DNA of 64,000 nt, from the sequence record MH816966; one strand, 5' to 3'. Source of the DNA: Escherichia phage FEC19. The notes under the pieces are model-generated. The model was given only the letters and a program-made list of their open reading frames with translations. It was not told the origin of the DNA and searched no databases. Shown here piece after piece: positions 28,101 to 60,407 of this stretch (position 1 is the stretch's first letter; each line of letters begins with the position of its first letter). The translations under genes were made by a program, and so were the position numbers.

Positions 28101-28745
28101 TTACATAACTGCTAGTGCATCCTTGTAACGCTTCCGTCGCAAATCCCCATGGTTAGCCGTATTCGGCGCGGCCCCGTTAATCCGCTTCACGGTCGAATCA
28201 AATGCACCCGCATCGGCAAGTGGAATGCAACCGCTGTTCTTGAAGAACCACGCTGCGCTGTCAGCGATGTATTTCGGCTCAGTCAAAATGTCAGGGTTAT
28301 TCAAGGCGTCATACCCTGATTGCTTTGAATACTCTGCATAGTTATCCTTTCCAGTCAGCTGAATGGCACCACGGCCACGGTACTTCCAACCGTCGCCAGA
28401 TGCTACCGAACCATTTCCCATTCGGTTTGCATATGTATTATTGGCGATTTCCATTGGTTTACGGGCAATCGACAACGCCAAGGAGTTTGGTGCGCCACCG
28501 AAACGACCGCTGACGCTGTAACGGCTAGGCCACGTGTTGGCAAGACCCTGTGCAGAGTAGTTGAGATTTTCCACAAATGTTCTCAAGCTGCCTGTCTCTA
28601 CTCCTACGTTTGCAAGGAATGCCGCGATGGCATTCTTGCTTTTGATTCCGTAGTGCTCACAAGCCTGCTTGAAAGGGTCCACCCATTTCTCTGCGACATC
28701 CATGCTGCATCCGGTCCCTTTAGATATTACGTTTGCATTAATCAT
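28101..28745 (-). CDS. endolysin, glycoside hydrolase family 19-like
   Basis: AAFLANVGVETG and RGRGAIQLTGKDNY segments typical of GH19 phage lysins; AAGGTGA RBS. Confidence 0.85.
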   Translation of the reverse strand: MINANVISKGTGCSMDVAEKWVDPFKQACEHYGIKSKNAIAAFLANVGVETGSLRTFVENLNYSAQGLANTWPSRYSVSGRFGGAPNSLALSIARKPMEIANNTYANRMGNGSVASGDGWKYRGRGAIQLTGKDNYAEYSKQSGYDALNNPDILTEPKYIADSAAWFFKNSGCIPLADAGAFDSTVKRINGAAPNTANHGDLRRKRYKDALAVM

Positions 28746-28753
28746 AAATCACC

Positions 28754-30541
28754 TTATGCGCTTCTGTACCAGCCGTTCAAGACGACATATCGCGGCAGAG
28801 TTGAAACAGCCGTTGGGACGGACTGCCCTGCATCGCCAGTGTTACCGACCACATCGTGAGTGTGAGCGGGGAGGGTATATCCATGGCTGTGATTGCCAGC
28901 GTAATTTATATTCAACCCATGAGTGTGTGACCCAGAAGATTGAATATTGTGAACGTGGTTGCCGTTAGTTGAGGTGTTGTATTTATAGTTGTCCCAGTCG
29001 CCGCCCTTTCGACTTCCGAAGTTGTTGTGCGTCCCATCATACACGCCATACCGCGCATCATTCGTATTTGCTTCACCCCAGCTACTGTCATGGTGGTGGT
29101 TGCCTGCTGAATCCATTCCGTGCACGTGAGCACCGTTTTGACTGGTATCGCCTGTGTGGTTATGGTTGCCTGCGTCTCCAGTGGTATTGGACCATGGACC
29201 ACTCTGTCGCGTAGTTATGTTCACGCTGTGATTGTGCAGAGGAAGCATGGCGGCGGTAAGAGTAACAGAGTCTGCACCTCCAGTGTCAAGACCGTTTCTT
29301 GCCGTGCCAGACGTCCTGATGACCATGTTATCAGGCAACCTGGTCCATACCTGACCGTAAGCGCCCAGTTTAGTATTTGGGTTAGTGCCATTAGTCAAGA
29401 ATCGAGTCTCACCGACTTCGAATACATCACCCATAGTTATCAACTTCGCGGCCAAAGCATCGAGTTGGCGCTTTGTGACAAACTGTTGCGGCTCACTAGC
29501 ATCGACACCGATTTGCGCCGCGCCGAATGCTTGAAGAAGACGCCAAACGGTGCCGTCATAAATAATAGTAAAAGGAAGAAGACCGACGATGGACCCTGCT
29601 GGCAGCTCGCCGCCGTCGAATCCAAGGACTGCAACTTTGTTTGCACCAATGGTCACGGTAACAGGTCCGGTGGTCGTTACATCATTGACAATTGTCAGGC
29701 GACTACCTGCTGACGGAGGCCATGAATAACCTGCTGGAACGGTAAGGATTATATCTTGTGCGCCTTTACCTGATGCAAGATTCGGCGTTCCAATTTGCAC
29801 GTCTTGAACAGTTGCATTTTGAATCCAAGCACTCCAAGCGCCAGACGTATAAGAGCGGGTGAAAACATATCCGTTCATTGACGTGTATTGTTGCAGGGCG
29901 AAAGTCTGCGCATTAACCTGCCAAGCGCAAACCTGGAGACGACCTGCAACCTTCGTCGCACCAACCGCGTTCGGGATGTTAGAGCAGAGAGCGGCGACTG
30001 CGTCAGATTGAATAACAATAGTTGTGGAAGTCGTGATATTATCAAAGTCCACAAAGTTTGAAATCAGTCCGCGAACAAAATACGGGTTTTGCGCATCGCC
30101 GCCAGCAGGCATAGGAATATATTTTCGCGCTTCGCTAGGCAGCGTCAATTCCTGCCAAGATTCCGTTTCGCCGTTAGCTGGGACTGCGCTGGTGTTGCCG
30201 TCAACCACGCTCTGGAAAATGCGCCATTCAGGCGCTGAAGGGGTGCCAGAGTTGCTTACAACGATGGCATTTTTCGGGTATCCATCTGGCTTCAAGTCAG
30301 ACGAGAAATACTGTTGAGCGCCGTGGTCCTGGATGAACATAAGGTTGTCGGTGATCAGATTCAGCAACCAGTTCATCGACTCACGTTCAACTGCTTTCGC
30401 GGCGACGTTTCCGGCTTCCAGCGCAAGTGCATAGTCAGGGGTGTAGCCGCGCTGGAAGTTCACATAACCGCTTGGACTTGCATCCGGCACCACGGATACA
30501 TCACCGCTTTGCGCGAAAGGTCTGTTAATAAGTGTTGGCAT
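28754..30541 (-). CDS. tail fibre protein with His-rich C-terminal repeats
   Basis: Start refined to MPTLINRPF; C-terminal HNHSV, NHNHTG, AHVHG, NHHHD, NHVHN, SHTHG, NHSHG, AHTHD repeats resemble metal-binding HxH motifs of long tail fibre tips. Confidence 0.7.
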   Translation of the reverse strand: MPTLINRPFAQSGDVSVVPDASPSGYVNFQRGYTPDYALALEAGNVAAKAVERESMNWLLNLITDNLMFIQDHGAQQYFSSDLKPDGYPKNAIVVSNSGTPSAPEWRIFQSVVDGNTSAVPANGETESWQELTLPSEARKYIPMPAGGDAQNPYFVRGLISNFVDFDNITTSTTIVIQSDAVAALCSNIPNAVGATKVAGRLQVCAWQVNAQTFALQQYTSMNGYVFTRSYTSGAWSAWIQNATVQDVQIGTPNLASGKGAQDIILTVPAGYSWPPSAGSRLTIVNDVTTTGPVTVTIGANKVAVLGFDGGELPAGSIVGLLPFTIIYDGTVWRLLQAFGAAQIGVDASEPQQFVTKRQLDALAAKLITMGDVFEVGETRFLTNGTNPNTKLGAYGQVWTRLPDNMVIRTSGTARNGLDTGGADSVTLTAAMLPLHNHSVNITTRQSGPWSNTTGDAGNHNHTGDTSQNGAHVHGMDSAGNHHHDSSWGEANTNDARYGVYDGTHNNFGSRKGGDWDNYKYNTSTNGNHVHNIQSSGSHTHGLNINYAGNHSHGYTLPAHTHDVVGNTGDAGQSVPTAVSTLPRYVVLNGWYRSA

Positions 30542-30551
30542 TGCCGTTCCT

Positions 30552-33290
30552 CTACACGATGTATTTAATTTTTGATAAAAGGGTTGATGCCCAATCACCA
30601 GTTAAGTCAGTTATGTTCATGCTTGAAACATAACCACCAGCAGCACTTCTCGGAAAGTTTACTGTTGCTACAACATCACCATTAGAAGCAATCAATTGAA
30701 TTCCAGTGGCAAGTGATCCTGGGTTTTTGATGTATATAGAAGTCGCAGTTTTCTTTGCGAAATCTTCGCTTGTTGAAATTGCAAGCGCATTCATCGTACT
30801 ACCAGACACAAGCATCAAGCTTAAAATATCAAGTTCAAGAGTCGTACCAACTTCGGTCGGCAAGTCTTTCCCTGATATCAAACCGATGCTGATGCCGCCT
30901 GTCGATCCATCCCAGGTAGAGCCTTCAACAATCTCAGCGGCAAGGTCAATTTCGATACGTTGCAAATCACCTGCGCCTATGTTGTAGAATTTAGGGATAT
31001 AGCCACCCATCCCATCCGGTACAGTTACAAAAAGTTTTTGACCGTTAACCGTGTTGTTTTTGACTATTGCGATAAACGACAAAGGGCCAGTCAGGGTGCC
31101 AGTGTATTTAGTAGCAAGTACAGCGCGTGCATAACCGGACGCTGGCACAGTCCCTATTGTAGCGGAAAGCTTGAATGATGGGAACTGGTTGGGCACACCG
31201 CTGATTGGCGTCGCTGTGACAGTGTTTACGCCATCCTCAATGATATTGCCAAAAGATGTACCGTCGTTTGGCTGTGTGTAGCGCCAATAGTTAGTGATTG
31301 CCGTGCGTGGTATTTCACGACCAAAGTCATCTCTTGATGCTTTTGAGATTGAATAGTCGTTGACAAGCGCGCCGTCGACGACCTGGTTCACACCTTTCAA
31401 AGATTCAAGCTGGCGTATCACACCGTTGAAGTTGTTCAGCGGCCACTCGTTAATGCCGCCAACTCTGATGATACCGTCAGTGTTAATCCACGCAACACCT
31501 TCCGTTTCAAATCCTACGCGCGTGTCTGTTATGTCGCTGACAGTCAAATCGATATCAGATAAGTCTGCGACTTCTTGGTAAAGCTGCCATCGTATTCCGG
31601 CATTTGCTGGCAAGAATCCTTCATTCCTGTCGCCAACTAGCGTCTTAAAGTTGTCAGACAGGTTGTTGGCGAAATAAGGTCCGATGACGTATTCCATGTA
31701 ATAGTCGGCGGTCGGAGGCGGCGGTACTCCATCCAGCCTGCTAACGTTCCATGAGCGTCTGATTCCATCAGTCTCTGCAATCAGCGTGGCGTTCCCTGGG
31801 TACGGGTAGCCGCCGATTGAGCCAGAGTATGCAAGTGATGAGCCAGGTTGCATGAATGACTCGCCAACTACACCGTTTCTTGTCGTCAGCGGTCCGTTTG
31901 CACAGGAGATGTTATTGAGCGTTCCCGCCGTTACAGACAGGATTGCTGTTCCGTCAGAAGGAGGGTTTTGCGTTCCATAAAAATAAGGCTCAGGCCCATT
32001 TGGATTCTGAACAGGGTCGCAGACGCAAATCGAGTATCCAAACAAAAGGGCATCAGACCCTTCAGGCAATTCACGAGTTTGAGTTGATCCAGCGGCAGTC
32101 GCCTTCAACTCTATTGAAAAGCTGGTACTTACTCCAGAAGCAGCGGTTGCCGTCTGCTCTACAATCCAGATTCGATACCAATCGCCGCCAATTGCTTTTA
32201 TGCCACCACGGTTTGATTCCCTTCTTACTCCATCGAATTTGCCTTTGATGAAATAGCTCAATGACGGGTCCAAGTTGAACTGGCCAGTGACGGGGTCAAA
32301 CAGCTTTCCATTACTCGATGCATCACTATTCTCTGTAACAGAAACAGAAGCGACGTTTTCAGAAAGCACCTTTATGTAGAAGCTATAGCAAACGTTGACG
32401 CCAGCCTGCGAAGGAAGCGAAATTGATTTGGCACTTGGATTATTGGCCAAAGAATACACAGGCTCACCGCTTGAAGCCGTCTTGATGACCCTTACTGCGT
32501 TGGCAAAATTCTCTATGGCCTCGCCTGGGTAATCGCCACACAACTGCCCATAGTAATCAGGCCCACCATACTGTCTGGTATCGCCGCCGACAAGCCCTGC
32601 GCCGGAACCATTTCCCCATGAGTACCAATCTGGGTGCGCCATCCGTGACACGGTGCCTGACACTCCGCTGATGGTCAGCCCGGCGTTGTTGCCATGGCTT
32701 AAAAGTATCTGCTTATAATCATGCTGAATCTCAGTTGACCCCTGCCAGTCGTACAGAAGGAATGAGCCATTGGTTGATTCAGACGAAGACACCGCGCCTT
32801 GAGTATTGTCGGTCACATATGCGTAGCGTGATGAAGAGTAATCCCAAGACTCTCCACGGTTGAAAATCCACTTAAGCATGCGGTTGATACTTTCGATGCG
32901 GCCATCACTTGTAAGCGTCAGATAACGAAGCTTAAGAAGTATGCGCGCTTCTTCGATATTCTTTACAACCTTCCCGCCAGCACCAAAGAAGTTGCCGCCG
33001 ATGTTGTCCGCACCTTCAAAGTTGTCGCGCGTCGGTCCAAACGCCCAGTTGTGCTCATAATTGCTTAAGTCCACAAAGTCTCTTGGTATGCAAAGAATGT
33101 CGCACCAAATATAAATTCCCATTGCATCACAAGTGTCAATGTTAAAAATGTTATTGTACCAGTCAGTCCAAAACTGATCTTGGTATCTTTCATACCAGTC
33201 ACTTTTCTTTTGCACCAAAGATGTAATGTTTGGTGCATTGTTCTGCATCCACTTAAGGTTTTGCAACAGGTTTGTGTCAAACTTTTGCAT
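30552..33290 (-). CDS. large tail fibre/baseplate-associated structural protein (912 aa)
   Basis: Gly/Ser/Thr/Asn-rich beta-type composition; between the baseplate J-like gene and the fibre gene. Confidence 0.55.
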   Translation of the reverse strand: MQKFDTNLLQNLKWMQNNAPNITSLVQKKSDWYERYQDQFWTDWYNNIFNIDTCDAMGIYIWCDILCIPRDFVDLSNYEHNWAFGPTRDNFEGADNIGGNFFGAGGKVVKNIEEARILLKLRYLTLTSDGRIESINRMLKWIFNRGESWDYSSSRYAYVTDNTQGAVSSSESTNGSFLLYDWQGSTEIQHDYKQILLSHGNNAGLTISGVSGTVSRMAHPDWYSWGNGSGAGLVGGDTRQYGGPDYYGQLCGDYPGEAIENFANAVRVIKTASSGEPVYSLANNPSAKSISLPSQAGVNVCYSFYIKVLSENVASVSVTENSDASSNGKLFDPVTGQFNLDPSLSYFIKGKFDGVRRESNRGGIKAIGGDWYRIWIVEQTATAASGVSTSFSIELKATAAGSTQTRELPEGSDALLFGYSICVCDPVQNPNGPEPYFYGTQNPPSDGTAILSVTAGTLNNISCANGPLTTRNGVVGESFMQPGSSLAYSGSIGGYPYPGNATLIAETDGIRRSWNVSRLDGVPPPPTADYYMEYVIGPYFANNLSDNFKTLVGDRNEGFLPANAGIRWQLYQEVADLSDIDLTVSDITDTRVGFETEGVAWINTDGIIRVGGINEWPLNNFNGVIRQLESLKGVNQVVDGALVNDYSISKASRDDFGREIPRTAITNYWRYTQPNDGTSFGNIIEDGVNTVTATPISGVPNQFPSFKLSATIGTVPASGYARAVLATKYTGTLTGPLSFIAIVKNNTVNGQKLFVTVPDGMGGYIPKFYNIGAGDLQRIEIDLAAEIVEGSTWDGSTGGISIGLISGKDLPTEVGTTLELDILSLMLVSGSTMNALAISTSEDFAKKTATSIYIKNPGSLATGIQLIASNGDVVATVNFPRSAAGGYVSSMNITDLTGDWASTLLSKIKYIV

Positions 33291-52002: not shown

Positions 52003-54378
52003 TCAACCTTGCTTCGGTGAATTAGTAGGATTATTGAGTGCTCCGTATGCTTGAGAGCAATCACCCTTCAACCACTCTTTGAATGAGTTCACATCTAATT
52101 CGTGGATTGAGTCGAATCCGTTCCAACCGTTACCAAATGATGCCTGATAAGCTTCTTTTGCTTCTTCTGCTGAATCGAATCCAAGCATGCACTTGTGTTC
52201 ATCGAACTCGCCAGAGTAGTTATCGTTTTGGTTCACGATAAAGACCTTCGGCGACTTCAGATTTGTGCCAACAAAGCAGTCGACTTCATCGCCGTCCGCG
52301 CCCTTGGTGCCTTTGATGAATCCGTAGTGGTGCGGCATCTTGACTGCCCATTCACCGTCAAGGCTGTTTCCTCTACGGATGCTGTTGCGAGGATTCTCAA
52401 TCCCAAGAATCAGCCCATGCAACTTCATCTTAGGTAATGATGCTGCGTCCATCTTTCCAACGTTGTGTCGTAAGTTGACGACATTACCTTTGACGCTTGG
52501 AAGGGTAGACGGTTGCACCGACCGTGAATCTTTTTGAGGGTCAAAATCCACATCCTGACCTTCTTTCAGGTAGTAATCCGCAATACCCTCCAGACCTTCT
52601 TTCAACTGCGTTAGGACATCAACCTGATGGCTTGATTCATCGTCGGTATCGTCCATGTTGATTTCGACAGGCGCTCTGTCAGGGTTTTCCGCCAACTCAC
52701 CGCGCGCGGCACCTTCTGGCATAATGCCTGTTTCACTGTAGAACTGGCCGCCCATCTTAACGACATCAGCTTTCGCCTGTTCAATATCGGCCTTACCTTG
52801 TAGGACTTCACCAGCAGACTTGCCAAGCAATGCCATATTCTCTGGAGACATCCCTGGTGTTTCTTCTGCCGCATCTTCCGGCAGACGGTTGTAGCCGCTG
52901 TTTTTGTCGTCTTTGATGCGGTCGCGCTCTTCATCAGGAGAAATGACGCCAGCATCAATAAGAGTTTTGCCAGTGTTGGCTCGCTTATCATTGATTTCTG
53001 CAAGTTGAGTAGCAGTAAGTGAGCCAACTGGTTCCCATGCAACCTTAACATCGACATCCACCCCTTCTGATTTGAGAAGGATTTTGTAATGGCGGTCGAG
53101 AATTTTTGTCAGGTCATGCTGCTGGCACGTTTCCAACTCTTCGTGATAGCTGACCATCTCGAATTCACCAGTGGCGTTAAAGCCTTTTGGCGAAGTCCCA
53201 AGCAGTTTGGTCGACGGAACTTTTGCGATTGCGGCCACCAGCTGGTACTGGTTCATGATGATGCTGTCGAAGTCTGACAAGTTGATATCAAACTGGTCCA
53301 TCTCTTCTTTTTGGCCAAGCACTTTGACTGCATAGTTGTCGCGGTACTTGATCCACATCATCAGACGTTCTGCAAAAGACCGCTCATTGGCAATCGCCTT
53401 GTCAACGTCGGTCCGCAGCGTGGTTGTACGCTTGGACATCGCCAGCAATGGCGCTTCGTTAGCGGTACGTTCAGCGGCATAGATGCGTTCATAAATCTGC
53501 TGAGTCAGAGGAATGCCGCCGTAAATATAAGTTGGCTTGAGAATATCAGCTGGCTCATCATTGCGCAAGATGATGAGGTGACTTCGATGATAACGTTGTC
53601 CACTGATCACCCAGTATTCTGGATCATAGAAGTGCTGTGATGCAGGGTCGGCGGTGTTTTCAGACGTCAAAAATGGCATCATCCAATAAGGGTCGACCTG
53701 AATGATTCCCTTATAAGACCCCTTTGTCACACCATCAATGTTAAAAGGCTTGCTGTAATATTCTGGGTCATCGCTACGCACATCAAATATGATGACGCGG
53801 ATACCAAAAATATTTTTGAATCGTTCGGCTTCAACTAAGTGCTCTTTGATATTAAATTCTTTATCAATTTGCTTTAGGCGTTCGCTTGCCTGTACTGACA
53901 ATTCTGACTCAGAACTGGATTTGACTTCCCATCCTTTACGGACCGCATCGCGGCCTACCATGGAACAAGCCTTGTTCACCAGCCAGTGCTGCGCGATGAT
54001 GGCGCAAGCTTGATATCCGATAAATGATTGCGATAAGTACCAGTTTTGCAACTGAATAGGTACTGTGTATGGGTTGACTTGCCCTTCTGAACTGATGTTC
54101 TTTAAGGCATTATCCATAACTTTTTTGGATACTGTTGCGGAATCGACTGAGCGACCTTTTATGATTGCAACACCATCGCCATTAATATCAGGCTCATATA
54201 AAGGGAAGTCATCAACCGTTTTAAAGGTCGGTCGATTGCTTTCAGTCTTTTCCCAGCGTTGACCGCTGCCGCGCCTTTCAAGGCGTTCAAACGGTGCCAA
54301 TGGGTCGCCTGGCGGCATCTCCGCTGGTTCGGCTTCTGGTTGCGTCTTCTCCCAGAGTTTTATGCCAAGAATTTTCAT
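52003..54378 (-). CDS. portal protein with C-terminal inorganic pyrophosphatase-like domain
   Basis: Portal-like central region; last about 160 aa carry HHYGFIKGTKGADGDEVDCFVG and GFDSAEEAKEAYQASF, resembling family I pyrophosphatase; start at ATG 54378 (MKILGIK) with GGTGG RBS. Confidence 0.65.
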   Translation of the reverse strand: MKILGIKLWEKTQPEAEPAEMPPGDPLAPFERLERRGSGQRWEKTESNRPTFKTVDDFPLYEPDINGDGVAIIKGRSVDSATVSKKVMDNALKNISSEGQVNPYTVPIQLQNWYLSQSFIGYQACAIIAQHWLVNKACSMVGRDAVRKGWEVKSSSESELSVQASERLKQIDKEFNIKEHLVEAERFKNIFGIRVIIFDVRSDDPEYYSKPFNIDGVTKGSYKGIIQVDPYWMMPFLTSENTADPASQHFYDPEYWVISGQRYHRSHLIILRNDEPADILKPTYIYGGIPLTQQIYERIYAAERTANEAPLLAMSKRTTTLRTDVDKAIANERSFAERLMMWIKYRDNYAVKVLGQKEEMDQFDINLSDFDSIIMNQYQLVAAIAKVPSTKLLGTSPKGFNATGEFEMVSYHEELETCQQHDLTKILDRHYKILLKSEGVDVDVKVAWEPVGSLTATQLAEINDKRANTGKTLIDAGVISPDEERDRIKDDKNSGYNRLPEDAAEETPGMSPENMALLGKSAGEVLQGKADIEQAKADVVKMGGQFYSETGIMPEGAARGELAENPDRAPVEINMDDTDDESSHQVDVLTQLKEGLEGIADYYLKEGQDVDFDPQKDSRSVQPSTLPSVKGNVVNLRHNVGKMDAASLPKMKLHGLILGIENPRNSIRRGNSLDGEWAVKMPHHYGFIKGTKGADGDEVDCFVGTNLKSPKVFIVNQNDNYSGEFDEHKCMLGFDSAEEAKEAYQASFGNGWNGFDSIHELDVNSFKEWLKGDCSQAYGALNNPTNSPKQG

Positions 54379-54540
54379 TGTTAACGCCACCTGACAGTGA
54401 AAGGGAATCAATCTATATTATAAATATTCATGTGTTTGTAAGCAAATGATATGTATGGTGATCATAAATAGTTCATAAAATATTTTGCTTTTGTATCATT
54501 TTGAGTTATATTTTAGTTAACCAAACGAAAGGAGATTGAA

Positions 54541-58070: not shown

Positions 58071-60407
58071 ATGCCAAGGCTAATATTCAAAAACAACTTT
58101 GAGGTCGCGCTTGCTCAGCCAACGACGACTTCAGACACCACAATTACAATCCGCTCAGGGTCGGGCTTTCCGACCTTGGCCGCAAACGAGCGTGTAGTGG
58201 CGACAATCGTCGACGCTGCAACAGGCCTCCAATTCGAAATCATCACAGTAACAGCCGTCGTTGGTGATGTCCTGACCGTTCAGCGTGCACAGGAAGGGAC
58301 TGCAGCGCGTGCATGGGCGGCTGGCGACATGCTTTCCATTCGAACAACTGCTGCGACTTTGACGGGTACTGTCCGAAACTTTGGCGTAATTCCTAATGGA
58401 GTAAACCTTAACGCGCTGAACGGAAGCTGGTTCGGGCAGTATTACCAACTGGCTGATTCTGGGGCATCAATATCACTCAACTATCCTGTCGCACAAGCGG
58501 GAATACTTGAAGTTTTACAAACGGGAGTTTCAACGAACGGATGTGTTCAGCGATACACACCTTACAACACTAACACTGTATACCAGAGGCTGTATAATGC
58601 CATCACATCAACTTGGTCTGATTGGGTTCAAGTTTATAATACGCAAAGCGTTATACCAGTCGCAAATGGCGGTACAGGACAAACGACCATCCAAGGGATG
58701 AAGTCTGCTTTTGGATTCGGAACGGTCGCTGATCAAAACATTGTTCCCACTTCAATGGGCGGTACGGGATCAGCAGACAATGCGCAGGCATGGCTTAACA
58801 TTCGTCCACAAGGGTCGACTCCGCTGGCTGGCGACCCTGTGAATGATTATGATGCCGCAACTAAGCGTTGGGTTGAGAACTTAGTAAATACTGGCACCGT
58901 TGGCCCAAGCATGAACGGTGTTATGAACTATGGCGTCGGTGACTTCCACTTACGCGACAGTCGTGCTTATATTCAACCATATGAAGTCGTTGCTGATGGG
59001 CAGTTGTTAAACCGCGCTGACTGGCCTGAACTTTGGGCGTATGCGCAAATGCTTTCTCCTATTGCTGATGCCGACTGGCTTGCTGACCCAGCGAAACGCG
59101 GCAAGTATTCACTTGGTAATGGCACAACGACATTCCGTGTACCAGACAGAAATGGTGTCCAGACCGGTTCCATACAAGCCTTATTTGGCAGGGGTGACGG
59201 CGGTAATTCATCGGCCAACGGAGTCGTTTCTGAGTCAGGTGCACCAAATATAACTTACTCCGCGCCGCACACAATGGTCACGTTGGCTTCTGCGCCAAGT
59301 CAGGTGGCGACTAATGGCGCTTTTCAGTCGATCACTTCTGGGGACTCTCCAGCAGCAGCAGGTTCTGGTTCAAGATTCATACAAACAAACTTTGACGCTT
59401 CTCGATCAAGCCCTGTATACGGAAGATCAGCAGCGGAAATCGTTCCGCGTAACTTTGTTGGCGTTTGGGTGATTCGTGCATCGGGTGGCTTTGTTGCCGC
59501 GAATACGACTTGGAGCGTTATTAATGGTGACGCAGTAAAACCTGCAACCGGAACGCTTGTCAGAGGCGGCAGTGTAAAATCTGAATATAAAATTGGCACC
59601 AACATTGCGTATCAAGCATTCTTGCAAGCATACGGTAAGATTGATGGATTAACGTCTGAACAAGGTGCTGTGATATCTAATGGGGTGCAAGAATGGAAGT
59701 TTGCGCAAGATGGCACATTTTATTTCCCTAACTCCATAAATCAAATTGGCACGGAAAGGACAGACGGGGCGCTGAATGTTAATGCATATCTCAGACCAAA
59801 AGACCTTGTTGCGCAACCGTTAAACTCAGTAGGCGTTGCAGCGTATGAAAGCAACGGCATGAGGATGATAAACTTCAACCAGTCAACACCTGGGTATGTA
59901 TCATATTTTTCAGGGGATTGGTATGCTGGCAGCTATACATTCGGAGGCGTTCGAGGCACTGGAACTGATTTGATGCACGCGCAAATATCCATAAACAATG
60001 GGCAAGGCGCTGCAGCAGATTTCAAATTCATGCCTGATGGTACTGCTACTGCAGGGAACTGGGTCAGCACGTCTGATGAGAGGGTCAAGACAAATATTCA
60101 AAGGATCTCCGACCCGTTAGGAAAGATGAGATTGATCAAGGGTGTGACTTGGGAGCGCCTTGATAAGTCAGAGAAACCGAATGGCATCGGATTTATAGCT
60201 CAAGATGTAGAAGGTGTATTTCCTGACGCAGTAAAAACTTTGAAATATTCAAACACGGAACTCAAGGATGGGACTGTTGTCGAAGATATCAAGTCAGTTG
60301 ACACTTACGGCGTTGCAGCGGCACTGCACCACGAGGCTATTCTCGCATTGATGGATCAAATAGATGAACTCAAGGCAGAGATAGCCGCGCTGAAAGCAGC
60401 GAAATAA
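58071..60407 (+). CDS. tail fibre/tailspike with C-terminal S74 intramolecular chaperone domain
   Basis: C-terminal SDERVKTNIQRISDPLGKMRLIKGVTWERL and coiled-coil tail, typical of self-cleaving chaperone domains of fibres and endosialidases. Confidence 0.8.
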   Translation: MPRLIFKNNFEVALAQPTTTSDTTITIRSGSGFPTLAANERVVATIVDAATGLQFEIITVTAVVGDVLTVQRAQEGTAARAWAAGDMLSIRTTAATLTGTVRNFGVIPNGVNLNALNGSWFGQYYQLADSGASISLNYPVAQAGILEVLQTGVSTNGCVQRYTPYNTNTVYQRLYNAITSTWSDWVQVYNTQSVIPVANGGTGQTTIQGMKSAFGFGTVADQNIVPTSMGGTGSADNAQAWLNIRPQGSTPLAGDPVNDYDAATKRWVENLVNTGTVGPSMNGVMNYGVGDFHLRDSRAYIQPYEVVADGQLLNRADWPELWAYAQMLSPIADADWLADPAKRGKYSLGNGTTTFRVPDRNGVQTGSIQALFGRGDGGNSSANGVVSESGAPNITYSAPHTMVTLASAPSQVATNGAFQSITSGDSPAAAGSGSRFIQTNFDASRSSPVYGRSAAEIVPRNFVGVWVIRASGGFVAANTTWSVINGDAVKPATGTLVRGGSVKSEYKIGTNIAYQAFLQAYGKIDGLTSEQGAVISNGVQEWKFAQDGTFYFPNSINQIGTERTDGALNVNAYLRPKDLVAQPLNSVGVAAYESNGMRMINFNQSTPGYVSYFSGDWYAGSYTFGGVRGTGTDLMHAQISINNGQGAAADFKFMPDGTATAGNWVSTSDERVKTNIQRISDPLGKMRLIKGVTWERLDKSEKPNGIGFIAQDVEGVFPDAVKTLKYSNTELKDGTVVEDIKSVDTYGVAAALHHEAILALMDQIDELKAEIAALKAAK

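What the first reader, a model, noticed from the sequence alone, without database searches (positions are those of the whole stretch)
28754..29100. His-rich HxH repeat region at the tail fibre C-terminus
The distal roughly 110 residues contain at least eight H-x-H triplets in Gly/Asn/Ser-rich context, resembling the metal-coordinating HxH motifs of T4 gp37-type fibre tips. This indicates a metal-stabilised receptor-binding tip.
Basis: partly seen in the sequence, partly recalled or inferred. Interest (0 to 1): 0.4.

Follow-up and report, generated by a model that had tools for sequence, protein, structure and literature searches.

The report
T4-like metal-binding tail fibre tip
The histidine-rich stretch is the tip of a phage tail fibre built like the iron-studded needle at the end of the T4 long tail fibre; it is real, but ordinary, and has already been described for near-identical phages.

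Summary
The window is a Wifcevirus (an E. coli myophage, 98.6% identical to Bas98). The finding lies in the C-terminus of the conserved tail fibre gene, whose real extent is 28754..30541 on the minus strand (595 aa).

Eight H-x-H motifs exist and are far beyond chance: 1.8 are expected, and none of 20,000 shuffles reached 8. They span the last 160 residues (28856-29236). Only five lie inside the stated 28754-29100.

They are arranged 4 + 4 around a 44-residue His-poor insert. All 16 motif histidines are invariant in 8 orthologues, while the middle residue varies.

A profile of the family matches the crystal structure of the T4 gp37 tip (2XGF, E=1.4e-10) over almost its whole length. It also matches the gp10 C-terminal collar. 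The best reading is therefore a gp37-type collar, needle and head tip. The chain runs out through four HxH motifs, forms a small head, and returns through four more. In the trimer each motif should form a His6 metal site, giving eight per fibre.

Metal binding, metal identity and receptor binding are inferred, not shown. A 2025 PLoS Biology paper already reports this for the orthologue in Bas99.

The parts
28754..30541 (-). Conserved Wifcevirus tail fibre gene (595 aa; stop codon 28754-28756). Orthologue of Bas98_0031 and Bas99_0031, the 'Gp32' of the BASEL paper.
   Evidence: 98.6% DNA identity to Bas98. Annotated orthologue starts. RBS GAGGAA before the ATG at 30541. PHROG 5717 tail protein, E=1.9e-176.
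29426..30541 (-). N-terminal baseplate anchor and 'beads-on-a-string' shaft (aa 1-372), homologous to the Pbunavirus Pa193 gp47 tail fibre.
   Evidence: phmmer hit to PDB 9b45 chain 2, E=3.8e-32, query 20-391 of the GTG ORF against chain 3-368. Pa193 paper PMC11456595.
29240..29413 (-). Collar domain, N-terminal half (aa 377-434), gp10/gp37-D10 type. It ends in GGADSVTLTAAMLP, just before the first HxH.
   Evidence: Family profile hits the gp10 C-terminal domain 2FKK at E=1.4e-4 and 2XGF. Homologues carry Pfam PF21939 Gp10_C. Boundaries follow gp37 D10 as given in PMC6957217.
29090..29239 (-). Outgoing arm of the needle (aa 435-484) with four HxH motifs: HNH 436, HNH 460, HVH 472, HHH 482.
   Evidence: Alignment with gp37 and Felix O1.
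28958..29089 (-). Head (tip) insert (aa 485-528): DSSWGEANTNDARYGVYDGTHNNFGSRKGGDWDNYKYNTSTNGN. No metal-type HxH. This is the presumed receptor-contacting end.
   Evidence: It holds 15 of 44 variable columns against 31 of 551 elsewhere in 8 orthologues (Fisher p=1e-7). dN is 12-fold and dS 3-fold above the N-terminal part. Only 11 representative clusters in 1.84 billion share this head.
28856..28957 (-). Returning arm of the needle (aa 529-562) with four HxH motifs: HVH 529, HTH 539, HSH 551, HTH 560.
   Evidence: The spacing mirrors the outgoing arm: 24, 12, 10 | 10, 12, 9.
28757..28855 (-). Collar domain, C-terminal strand(s) (aa 563-595), ending ...LPRYVVLNGWYRSA.
   Evidence: The conserved C-terminal Y..(L/V)..W.R.A motif is shared with gp10, gp37, Felix O1 and Xenorhabdus fibres.

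Best explanation
The last ~219 residues of the conserved Wifcevirus tail fibre form a T4 gp37-type receptor-binding tip. A gp10/gp12-like collar domain is interrupted by a long insertion. In that insertion the chain runs away from the collar through four HxH motifs, folds into a 44-residue head, and runs back through four more HxH motifs. In the homotrimer the six strands (two per chain) twist into a thin needle. At each HxH level the six histidines (two from each of three chains) point to the three-fold axis and hold one divalent metal ion octahedrally. The metal is Fe2+ in T4. That gives eight ions per fibre, which rivet the needle together. The head at the far end touches the host surface.

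Shown here: the motifs, their non-random clustering and invariance, the 4+4 layout, and homology to gp37/gp10.

Inferred: trimer geometry, metal occupancy and identity, and receptor contact by the head.
For: Eight HxH against 1.8 expected, with 0 of 20,000 shuffles reaching 8.

All 16 motif histidines are invariant in 8 Wifcevirus orthologues down to 88% DNA identity. The middle residue changes in 3 motifs (N/S, V/S, H/Y), and a non-motif His in the head varies (H/N/R).

The family profile hits 2XGF (gp37 tip) at E=1.4e-10 across chain 14-237, and the gp10 C-terminal domain at E=1.4e-4. hhalign probability is 98.4%. Direct BLASTP to gp37 gives E=0.001.

gp37 has 3+4 HxH and seven Fe ions, so one motif corresponds to one ion. 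H929A and H931A are lethal (PMC6957217).

Across 127 family members with 3-25 HxH, the counts on the two sides of the largest gap are tightly coupled (r=0.88; 110 of 127 differ by 0 or 1). This is what an out-and-back hairpin predicts.

Cryo-EM-guided models of Felixounavirus Bas63 fibres, which are ~30% identical here, show the same collar, six-stranded needle and head (PMC12609058).

An AlphaFold 3 trimer of the Bas99 orthologue was reported to have a T4-like elongated tip with HxH motifs for ion coordination (PMC11990801).
Against: No trimer model could be made here. The AF2 monomer is poor (pLDDT 62, pTM 0.30) and found nothing by Foldseek.

The window protein alone gives no significant Pfam hit and no direct PDB hit for its C-terminus. 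The link needs a family profile.

No gp38-like or Tfa-like chaperone gene follows the fibre gene. The next gene is the endolysin.

The BASEL authors suggest a mechanical rather than specificity role, because the fibre is highly conserved.

Metal content has never been measured for this fibre.
Confidence: 0.85

Rival explanations
1. The needle is metal-stabilised as described, but the fibre is not a specificity-determining receptor binder. It acts mainly as a rigid mechanical strut or trigger, or binds an invariant secondary receptor. Host range is then set by the second, T-shaped fibre (window 58071-60407).
For: The fibre is very conserved across the genus: overall dN/dS 0.04, and only 46 of 595 columns vary. 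The BASEL paper makes this suggestion and shows that all four isolates depend on the O16 O-antigen, which it assigns to the variable T-shaped fibre. The N-terminus matches the single baseplate-attached fibre of Pbunavirus.
Against: What variation exists is concentrated eight-fold in the head (Fisher p=1e-7). dS is also raised there, as expected if tip modules are exchanged. In T4 the homologous head is the receptor contact (PMC6957217).
Confidence: 0.3
2. It is a T4 gp12-type short-tail-fibre receptor-binding domain with a single Zn site. The other histidines would be surface residues.
For: A weak Pfam match to PF14928 (short tail fibre receptor-binding domain), E=0.51, 11 bits against a cut-off of 23.8. 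gp12, gp10 and gp37 share the collar fold (PMC6957217).
Against: The Pfam match is far below threshold. The family profile found gp37 and gp10 structures but no gp12 structure. Eight invariant motifs in a mirrored 4+4 layout are not explained by a single site.
Confidence: 0.04
3. The His-rich stretch is compositional low complexity or a chance pattern with no metal role.
For: The region is N/G/S/T/H-rich. At the DNA level there are only short imperfect repeats.
Against: 0 of 20,000 shuffles of the same composition reach 8 motifs. The histidines are invariant while the residues between them change. The same motif positions are invariant across a family of more than 3,000 proteins.
Confidence: 0.02

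Closest known systems
T4 gp37 long tail fibre receptor-binding tip (domains D10-D11; PDB 2XGF)
   Same: A collar interrupted by an out-and-back needle with HxH motifs on both arms and a small head at the turn. The first HxH follows the collar directly. The C-terminal ...R.A strand is shared. Homology is detectable by profile (E=1.4e-10).
   Different: 4+4 motifs instead of 3+4. The head is 44 aa instead of 28 aa and has an unrelated sequence. Pairwise identity is only ~23-27%. The tip is fused directly to a short Pbunavirus-type shaft rather than to a long multi-protein fibre. No adjacent gp38-type chaperone gene.
Conserved tail fibre of Wifcevirus phages (Gp32 of ManiWeber/Bas99; Humolli et al., PLoS Biol 2025, PMC11990801)
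   Same: The same gene: 91-98% DNA identity, the same length and the same eight HxH positions. [quoted passage not shown]
   Different: Nothing material. Equating it with 'Gp32' rests on its being the only HxH-rich ORF in the genome window; the GenBank locus tag is Bas99_0031.
Felixounavirus long and short tail fibres (Felix O1 ORF184; Bas63 gp26/gp27; RBPseg class TC6)
   Same: A gp10-like collar plus a T4-like needle with 6-7 HxH motifs and a head. About 30% identical over the whole 219-aa tip.
   Different: Different N-terminal shafts and a different head sequence.
Xenorhabdus/Photorhabdus tail fibre proteins (P0001-P0004, P0115)
   Same: The closest relatives of the tip outside the genus (36% identity, E=9e-21). 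The head is 72% identical (31 of 43 aligned residues). They carry Pfam Gp10_C.
   Different: Only 2+2 HxH motifs, so a shorter needle. The N-terminus is a P2/lambda-type fibre repeat (PF03406). P0001 sits as an orphan gene in a bacterial island.
Pseudomonas phage Pa193 gp47 tail fibre (PDB 9b45)
   Same: The N-terminal 372 aa are homologous, covering the baseplate attachment loop and three beads.
   Different: The Pa193 fibre is 962 aa with a different distal part. No HxH needle match was found (second domain not significant).

Membership tests
T4 gp37-type receptor-binding tip (collar-needle-head, 2XGF) | Sequence homology to the gp37 C-terminal region | tested here: met
   Family profile against 2XGF: E=1.4e-10 over chain 14-237. 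hhalign 98.4%. Pairwise BLASTP E=0.001.
T4 gp37-type receptor-binding tip (collar-needle-head, 2XGF) | gp10/gp12-like collar domain split by the needle insertion | tested here: met
   The profile hits the gp10 C-terminal domain 2FKK with both the N-terminal part and the C-terminal strand. Homologues pass the Pfam PF21939 threshold. The window protein alone does not reach Pfam significance.
T4 gp37-type receptor-binding tip (collar-needle-head, 2XGF) | Several HxH motifs on both arms around a His-poor head (out-and-back topology) | tested here: met
   A 4+4 layout with mirrored spacing. Arm counts are coupled across 127 relatives, r=0.88.
T4 gp37-type receptor-binding tip (collar-needle-head, 2XGF) | Homotrimer in which each HxH level forms an inward-facing His6 octahedral site | not testable with these tools
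   Only monomer AF2 is offered. A published AF3 trimer of the orthologue is described as T4-like.
T4 gp37-type receptor-binding tip (collar-needle-head, 2XGF) | Bound Fe2+ (or another divalent metal) at the HxH sites | not testable with these tools
   Needs ICP-MS, X-ray fluorescence or a structure.
T4 gp37-type receptor-binding tip (collar-needle-head, 2XGF) | Head domain contacts the host receptor | tested here: inconclusive
   Variation among orthologues is concentrated in the head, with raised dN and dS. There are no binding data.
T4 gp37-type receptor-binding tip (collar-needle-head, 2XGF) | Dedicated folding chaperones (gp38, gp57A) | not tested
   The gene directly downstream is an endolysin. 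The rest of the genome was not searched for chaperones.
T4 gp12 short tail fibre receptor-binding domain (PF14928) | Match to the family model above threshold | tested here: not met
   E=0.51, 11.1 bits against a cut-off of 23.8. No gp12 structure was found by the profile search.
Pbunavirus-type baseplate-attached tail fibre (Pa193 gp47) | Homology of the N-terminal anchor and bead domains | tested here: met
   E=3.8e-32, query 20-391 against chain 3-368.

The most novel reading that the evidence does not exclude
The eight-ion His6 stack may be more than a passive rivet. It could be a metal- or pH-sensitive element, so that fibre assembly, rigidity or firing depends on Fe/Zn availability. That would mean about 48 bound ions per virion if there are six fibres. 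In parallel, the 44-residue head may be a rare exchangeable receptor cartridge shared with Xenorhabdus/Photorhabdus fibres, with needle length set by paired gain or loss of HxH units on both arms.
Probability: 0.1. Interest if true: 0.45.

Novelty: already known. Interest (0 to 1): 0.15.

Why it matters
The practical value is in annotation and phage engineering. The analysis fixes the true gene start. It gives a residue-level domain map (anchor, collar, outgoing arm, head, returning arm) for the conserved Wifcevirus fibre. It identifies aa 485-528 as the segment to swap or mutate when probing what this fibre binds. It also shows that the HxH needle is a large family (more than 3,000 proteins, 3-25 motifs per chain) in which the two arms grow and shrink together. 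None of this changes the current understanding of such fibres.

Tried and rejected
- Pfam scan of the whole protein: nothing significant.
- phmmer of the C-terminal 219 aa against PDB sequences: no hit. Only the family profile reached 2XGF.
- First single-sequence search of the big protein database: it returned distant Xenorhabdus and metagenome relatives but not the Wifcevirus orthologues. Those came from the phage collection and the second, profile search.
- AF2 monomer model of the tip with a 123-row alignment: mean pLDDT 62, pTM 0.30, with the head below 50. Foldseek against the PDB gave only non-significant gp10 hits (E>2). The model was not used as evidence.
- Bartual et al. 2010 (PMC2996694) is not held. 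The T4 facts are taken from PMC6957217 and PMC12609058.
- DNA-level repeat search in the needle: only 13-17-nt imperfect repeats at the AGNHxH units, so there is no sign of recent duplication.
- Positive selection in the head: rejected. dN/dS is 0.09 with dS three-fold raised, which points to exchange or deeper divergence rather than dN>dS.
- The plus-strand ORFs overlapping the region (28669-28968, 28969-29214) were treated as antisense artefacts of the fibre gene.

Full report
**What is at the coordinates.** The finding lies in the 3' part of a minus-strand ORF, 28754..30598 (614 aa from a GTG). The annotated orthologues in Bas98, Bas99, ECO71P1, Mansfield, ECML-117, WFH and WFC all start 19 codons further in. 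In the window that ATG, at 30541, is preceded by GAGGAA and follows the upstream gene's stop by a few bases. The gene is therefore 28754..30541 (595 aa), and residue numbers below use that protein.

The window is a Wifcevirus, an E. coli myophage of ~68 kb. The gene is 98.6% identical in DNA to Bas98 (HermannAdler), and 27 phage records carry it at 88-99% identity.

**Checking the observation.** There are exactly eight H-x-H triplets:
- outgoing side: 436 (HNH), 460 (HNH), 472 (HVH), 482 (HHH)
- returning side: 529 (HVH), 539 (HTH), 551 (HSH), 560 (HTH)

They span window 28856-29236, which is the distal ~160 residues.

The context is N/G/S/T-rich as claimed. Shuffling the C-terminal 175 aa gives 1.8 motifs on average, and none of 20,000 shuffles reaches 8. 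No other reading frame in the 64-kb window has even three.

**What the protein is.**
- PHROGs files it as a tail protein (phrog_5717, E=1.9e-176).
- Residues 1-372 are homologous to the part of the Pseudomonas phage Pa193 gp47 tail fibre that was built into cryo-EM density (PDB 9b45, E=3.8e-32). That part comprises a baseplate-attachment loop and three 'beads' (PMC11456595).
- The C-terminal 219 aa have no direct PDB or Pfam hit, but they do have relatives:
  - Xenorhabdus and Photorhabdus tail fibres (36% identity, E=9e-21), which carry Pfam PF21939 (Gp10_C).
  - Felixounavirus fibres at ~30% identity, plus Xanthomonas DIBBI, Pantoea LIET2 and others.
- A profile of 15 such sequences hits the crystal structure of the T4 gp37 tip (2XGF) at E=1.4e-10 over chain residues 14-237. 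It also hits the gp10 C-terminal domain (2FKK) at E=1.4e-4, through both the N-terminal collar part and the last strand.
- hhalign against gp37 gives 98.4% probability. Pairwise BLASTP gives E=0.001.
- In a joint alignment four features line up between the window protein, gp37, Felix O1 and the Xenorhabdus proteins: the first HxH after the collar, the last HxH before the head, the first HxH after the head, and the C-terminal ...R.A strand.

**Anatomy.** I used the T4 domain limits given by Islam et al. (D10 collar 811-881 + 1010-1026; D11 stem 882-931 + 960-1009; tip 932-959; PMC6957217). The window protein maps as follows:

| Segment | Residues |
|---|---|
| Collar | 377-434 and 563-595 |
| Outgoing arm | 435-484 |
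| Head | 485-528 |
| Returning arm | 529-562 |

The HxH spacings are mirrored about the head: 24, 12, 10 | 10, 12, 9. T4 gp37 has 3+4 motifs and seven iron ions, so one motif corresponds to one ion. By the same rule this fibre would hold eight.

**Tests of the hairpin/metal model that could be run.**
1. Conservation within the genus. In eight Wifcevirus orthologues all 16 motif histidines are invariant. The residue between them changes in three motifs (N/S, V/S, H/Y). The one non-motif histidine in the head varies (H/N/R). The H-x-H pattern itself is what is kept.
2. Conservation across the family. A profile search found at least 3,325 proteins with 3 to 25 motifs per chain, and the motif histidines are the invariant columns.
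3. Arm coupling. In 127 members the motif counts on either side of the largest gap are tightly coupled (r=0.88; 97 have out = back + 1, 13 have out = back). A chain that runs out and back in one needle must grow on both arms together. These 127 are the best-scoring hits and are partly related to one another, so the correlation is supportive rather than a formal test.
4. Comparison with the closest relatives. The Xenorhabdus proteins have the same head but only 2+2 motifs. The Wifcevirus needle is the same design lengthened by two units on each arm.

**The head.**
- Among the eight orthologues, 15 of 44 head columns vary against 31 of 551 elsewhere (odds ratio 8.7, Fisher p=1e-7).
- dN in the head is 0.12 against 0.01 in the N-terminal part. 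dS is also three-fold higher (1.36 against 0.45), so dN/dS stays low at 0.09. I read this as deeper divergence or exchange of the tip segment, not positive selection.
- The head is also the part most similar to the Xenorhabdus fibres: 31 of 43 aligned residues identical, against 21 of 56 in the collar.
- An exhaustive search with the head alone found only 11 representative clusters in 1.84 billion proteins. These sit on needles of different lengths and on different shafts.
- The head therefore behaves as a rare, portable module. In T4 the equivalent subdomain is the LPS/OmpC contact.

**What could not be tested.** The decisive geometry is whether the histidines face the three-fold axis, and that needs a trimer.
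- The AF2 monomer was poor (pLDDT 62, pTM 0.30) and Foldseek found nothing significant.
- Metal content and identity, and receptor binding, are experimental questions.
- The Bas63 cryo-EM paper describes the same collar, six-stranded needle and head for Felixounavirus fibres (PMC12609058).

**Function.** The BASEL authors note that this fibre is highly conserved. They propose a more mechanical role, with the variable T-shaped fibre (here 58071-60407) recognising the O-antigen. My data agree that the fibre is conserved overall, but show that what does vary is the head.

The most likely picture is a rigid, metal-riveted needle whose head binds a conserved surface structure and feeds the baseplate trigger. 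That fits its homology to the only baseplate fibre of Pbunavirus. Whether it contributes to host range is open; I put the 'mainly mechanical or invariant receptor' reading at about 0.3.

**Novelty and verdict.** It belongs to a very large, well-characterised class. Interest is low (0.15).

The small additions here are:
- the corrected gene start
- the residue-level domain map
- the arm-coupling statistic
- the clustering of variation in the head
- the rarity and portability of the head module

Noticed in passing
window 30542-30598 (-): The mechanical ORF starts at a GTG 19 codons upstream and overlaps the end of the preceding gene (30552-33290). The real start is the ATG at 30541, with a GAGGAA ribosome-binding site. 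All annotated orthologues agree.
   Followed up: yes
window 28101-28745 (-): The gene immediately after the fibre, 8 nt downstream, is the endolysin (PHROG 181, with a chitinase/GH19-like match). No tail fibre assembly chaperone lies between them, unlike T4 gene 38 after gene 37. Pantoea phage LIET2 has the same fibre-then-lysozyme order (L004).
   Followed up: partly
window 58071-60407 (+): A second tail fibre gene (778 aa, PHROG 6921, E=9e-237). It is probably the T-shaped dual-RBD fibre described for Wifcevirus (Gp114 of Bas99). It has fewer than three HxH motifs.
   Followed up: partly
window 30552-33290 (-): A 912-aa protein directly upstream of the fibre, annotated as hypothetical in all relatives (PHROG 4797, unknown function). 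Its N-terminal 258 aa match a 'structural protein' family. By position it is likely a baseplate or fibre-network component.
   Followed up: no
window 52003-54411 (-): A portal/minor-head-type protein (802 aa). Its C-terminal ~125 residues (661-790) match a domain that is also found inside very large phage proteins annotated as DarB-like antirestriction protein or endolysin. This may be a fused ejected-protein domain.
   Followed up: no
L012 8001-8933 (Xenorhabdus bovienii contig): The closest non-Wifcevirus relative of the tip is an orphan 310-aa tail fibre gene. No other phage structural genes lie within 8 kb. It sits next to an AlpA-like regulator remnant, a SrfB/virulence-factor cluster, a transposase and DndB.
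   Followed up: partly
window 28958-29089 (-) compared with orthologues L006-L011: Synonymous divergence in the head segment is about three times that of the rest of the gene (dS 1.36 against 0.45). This suggests that the tip has been exchanged between Wifcevirus lineages.
   Followed up: partly
P0109 (metagenome protein): One family member ends in a Cys/Leu/Ser-rich tail in place of the head and returning arm. This looks like a frameshift or assembly error rather than a real variant.
   Followed up: no
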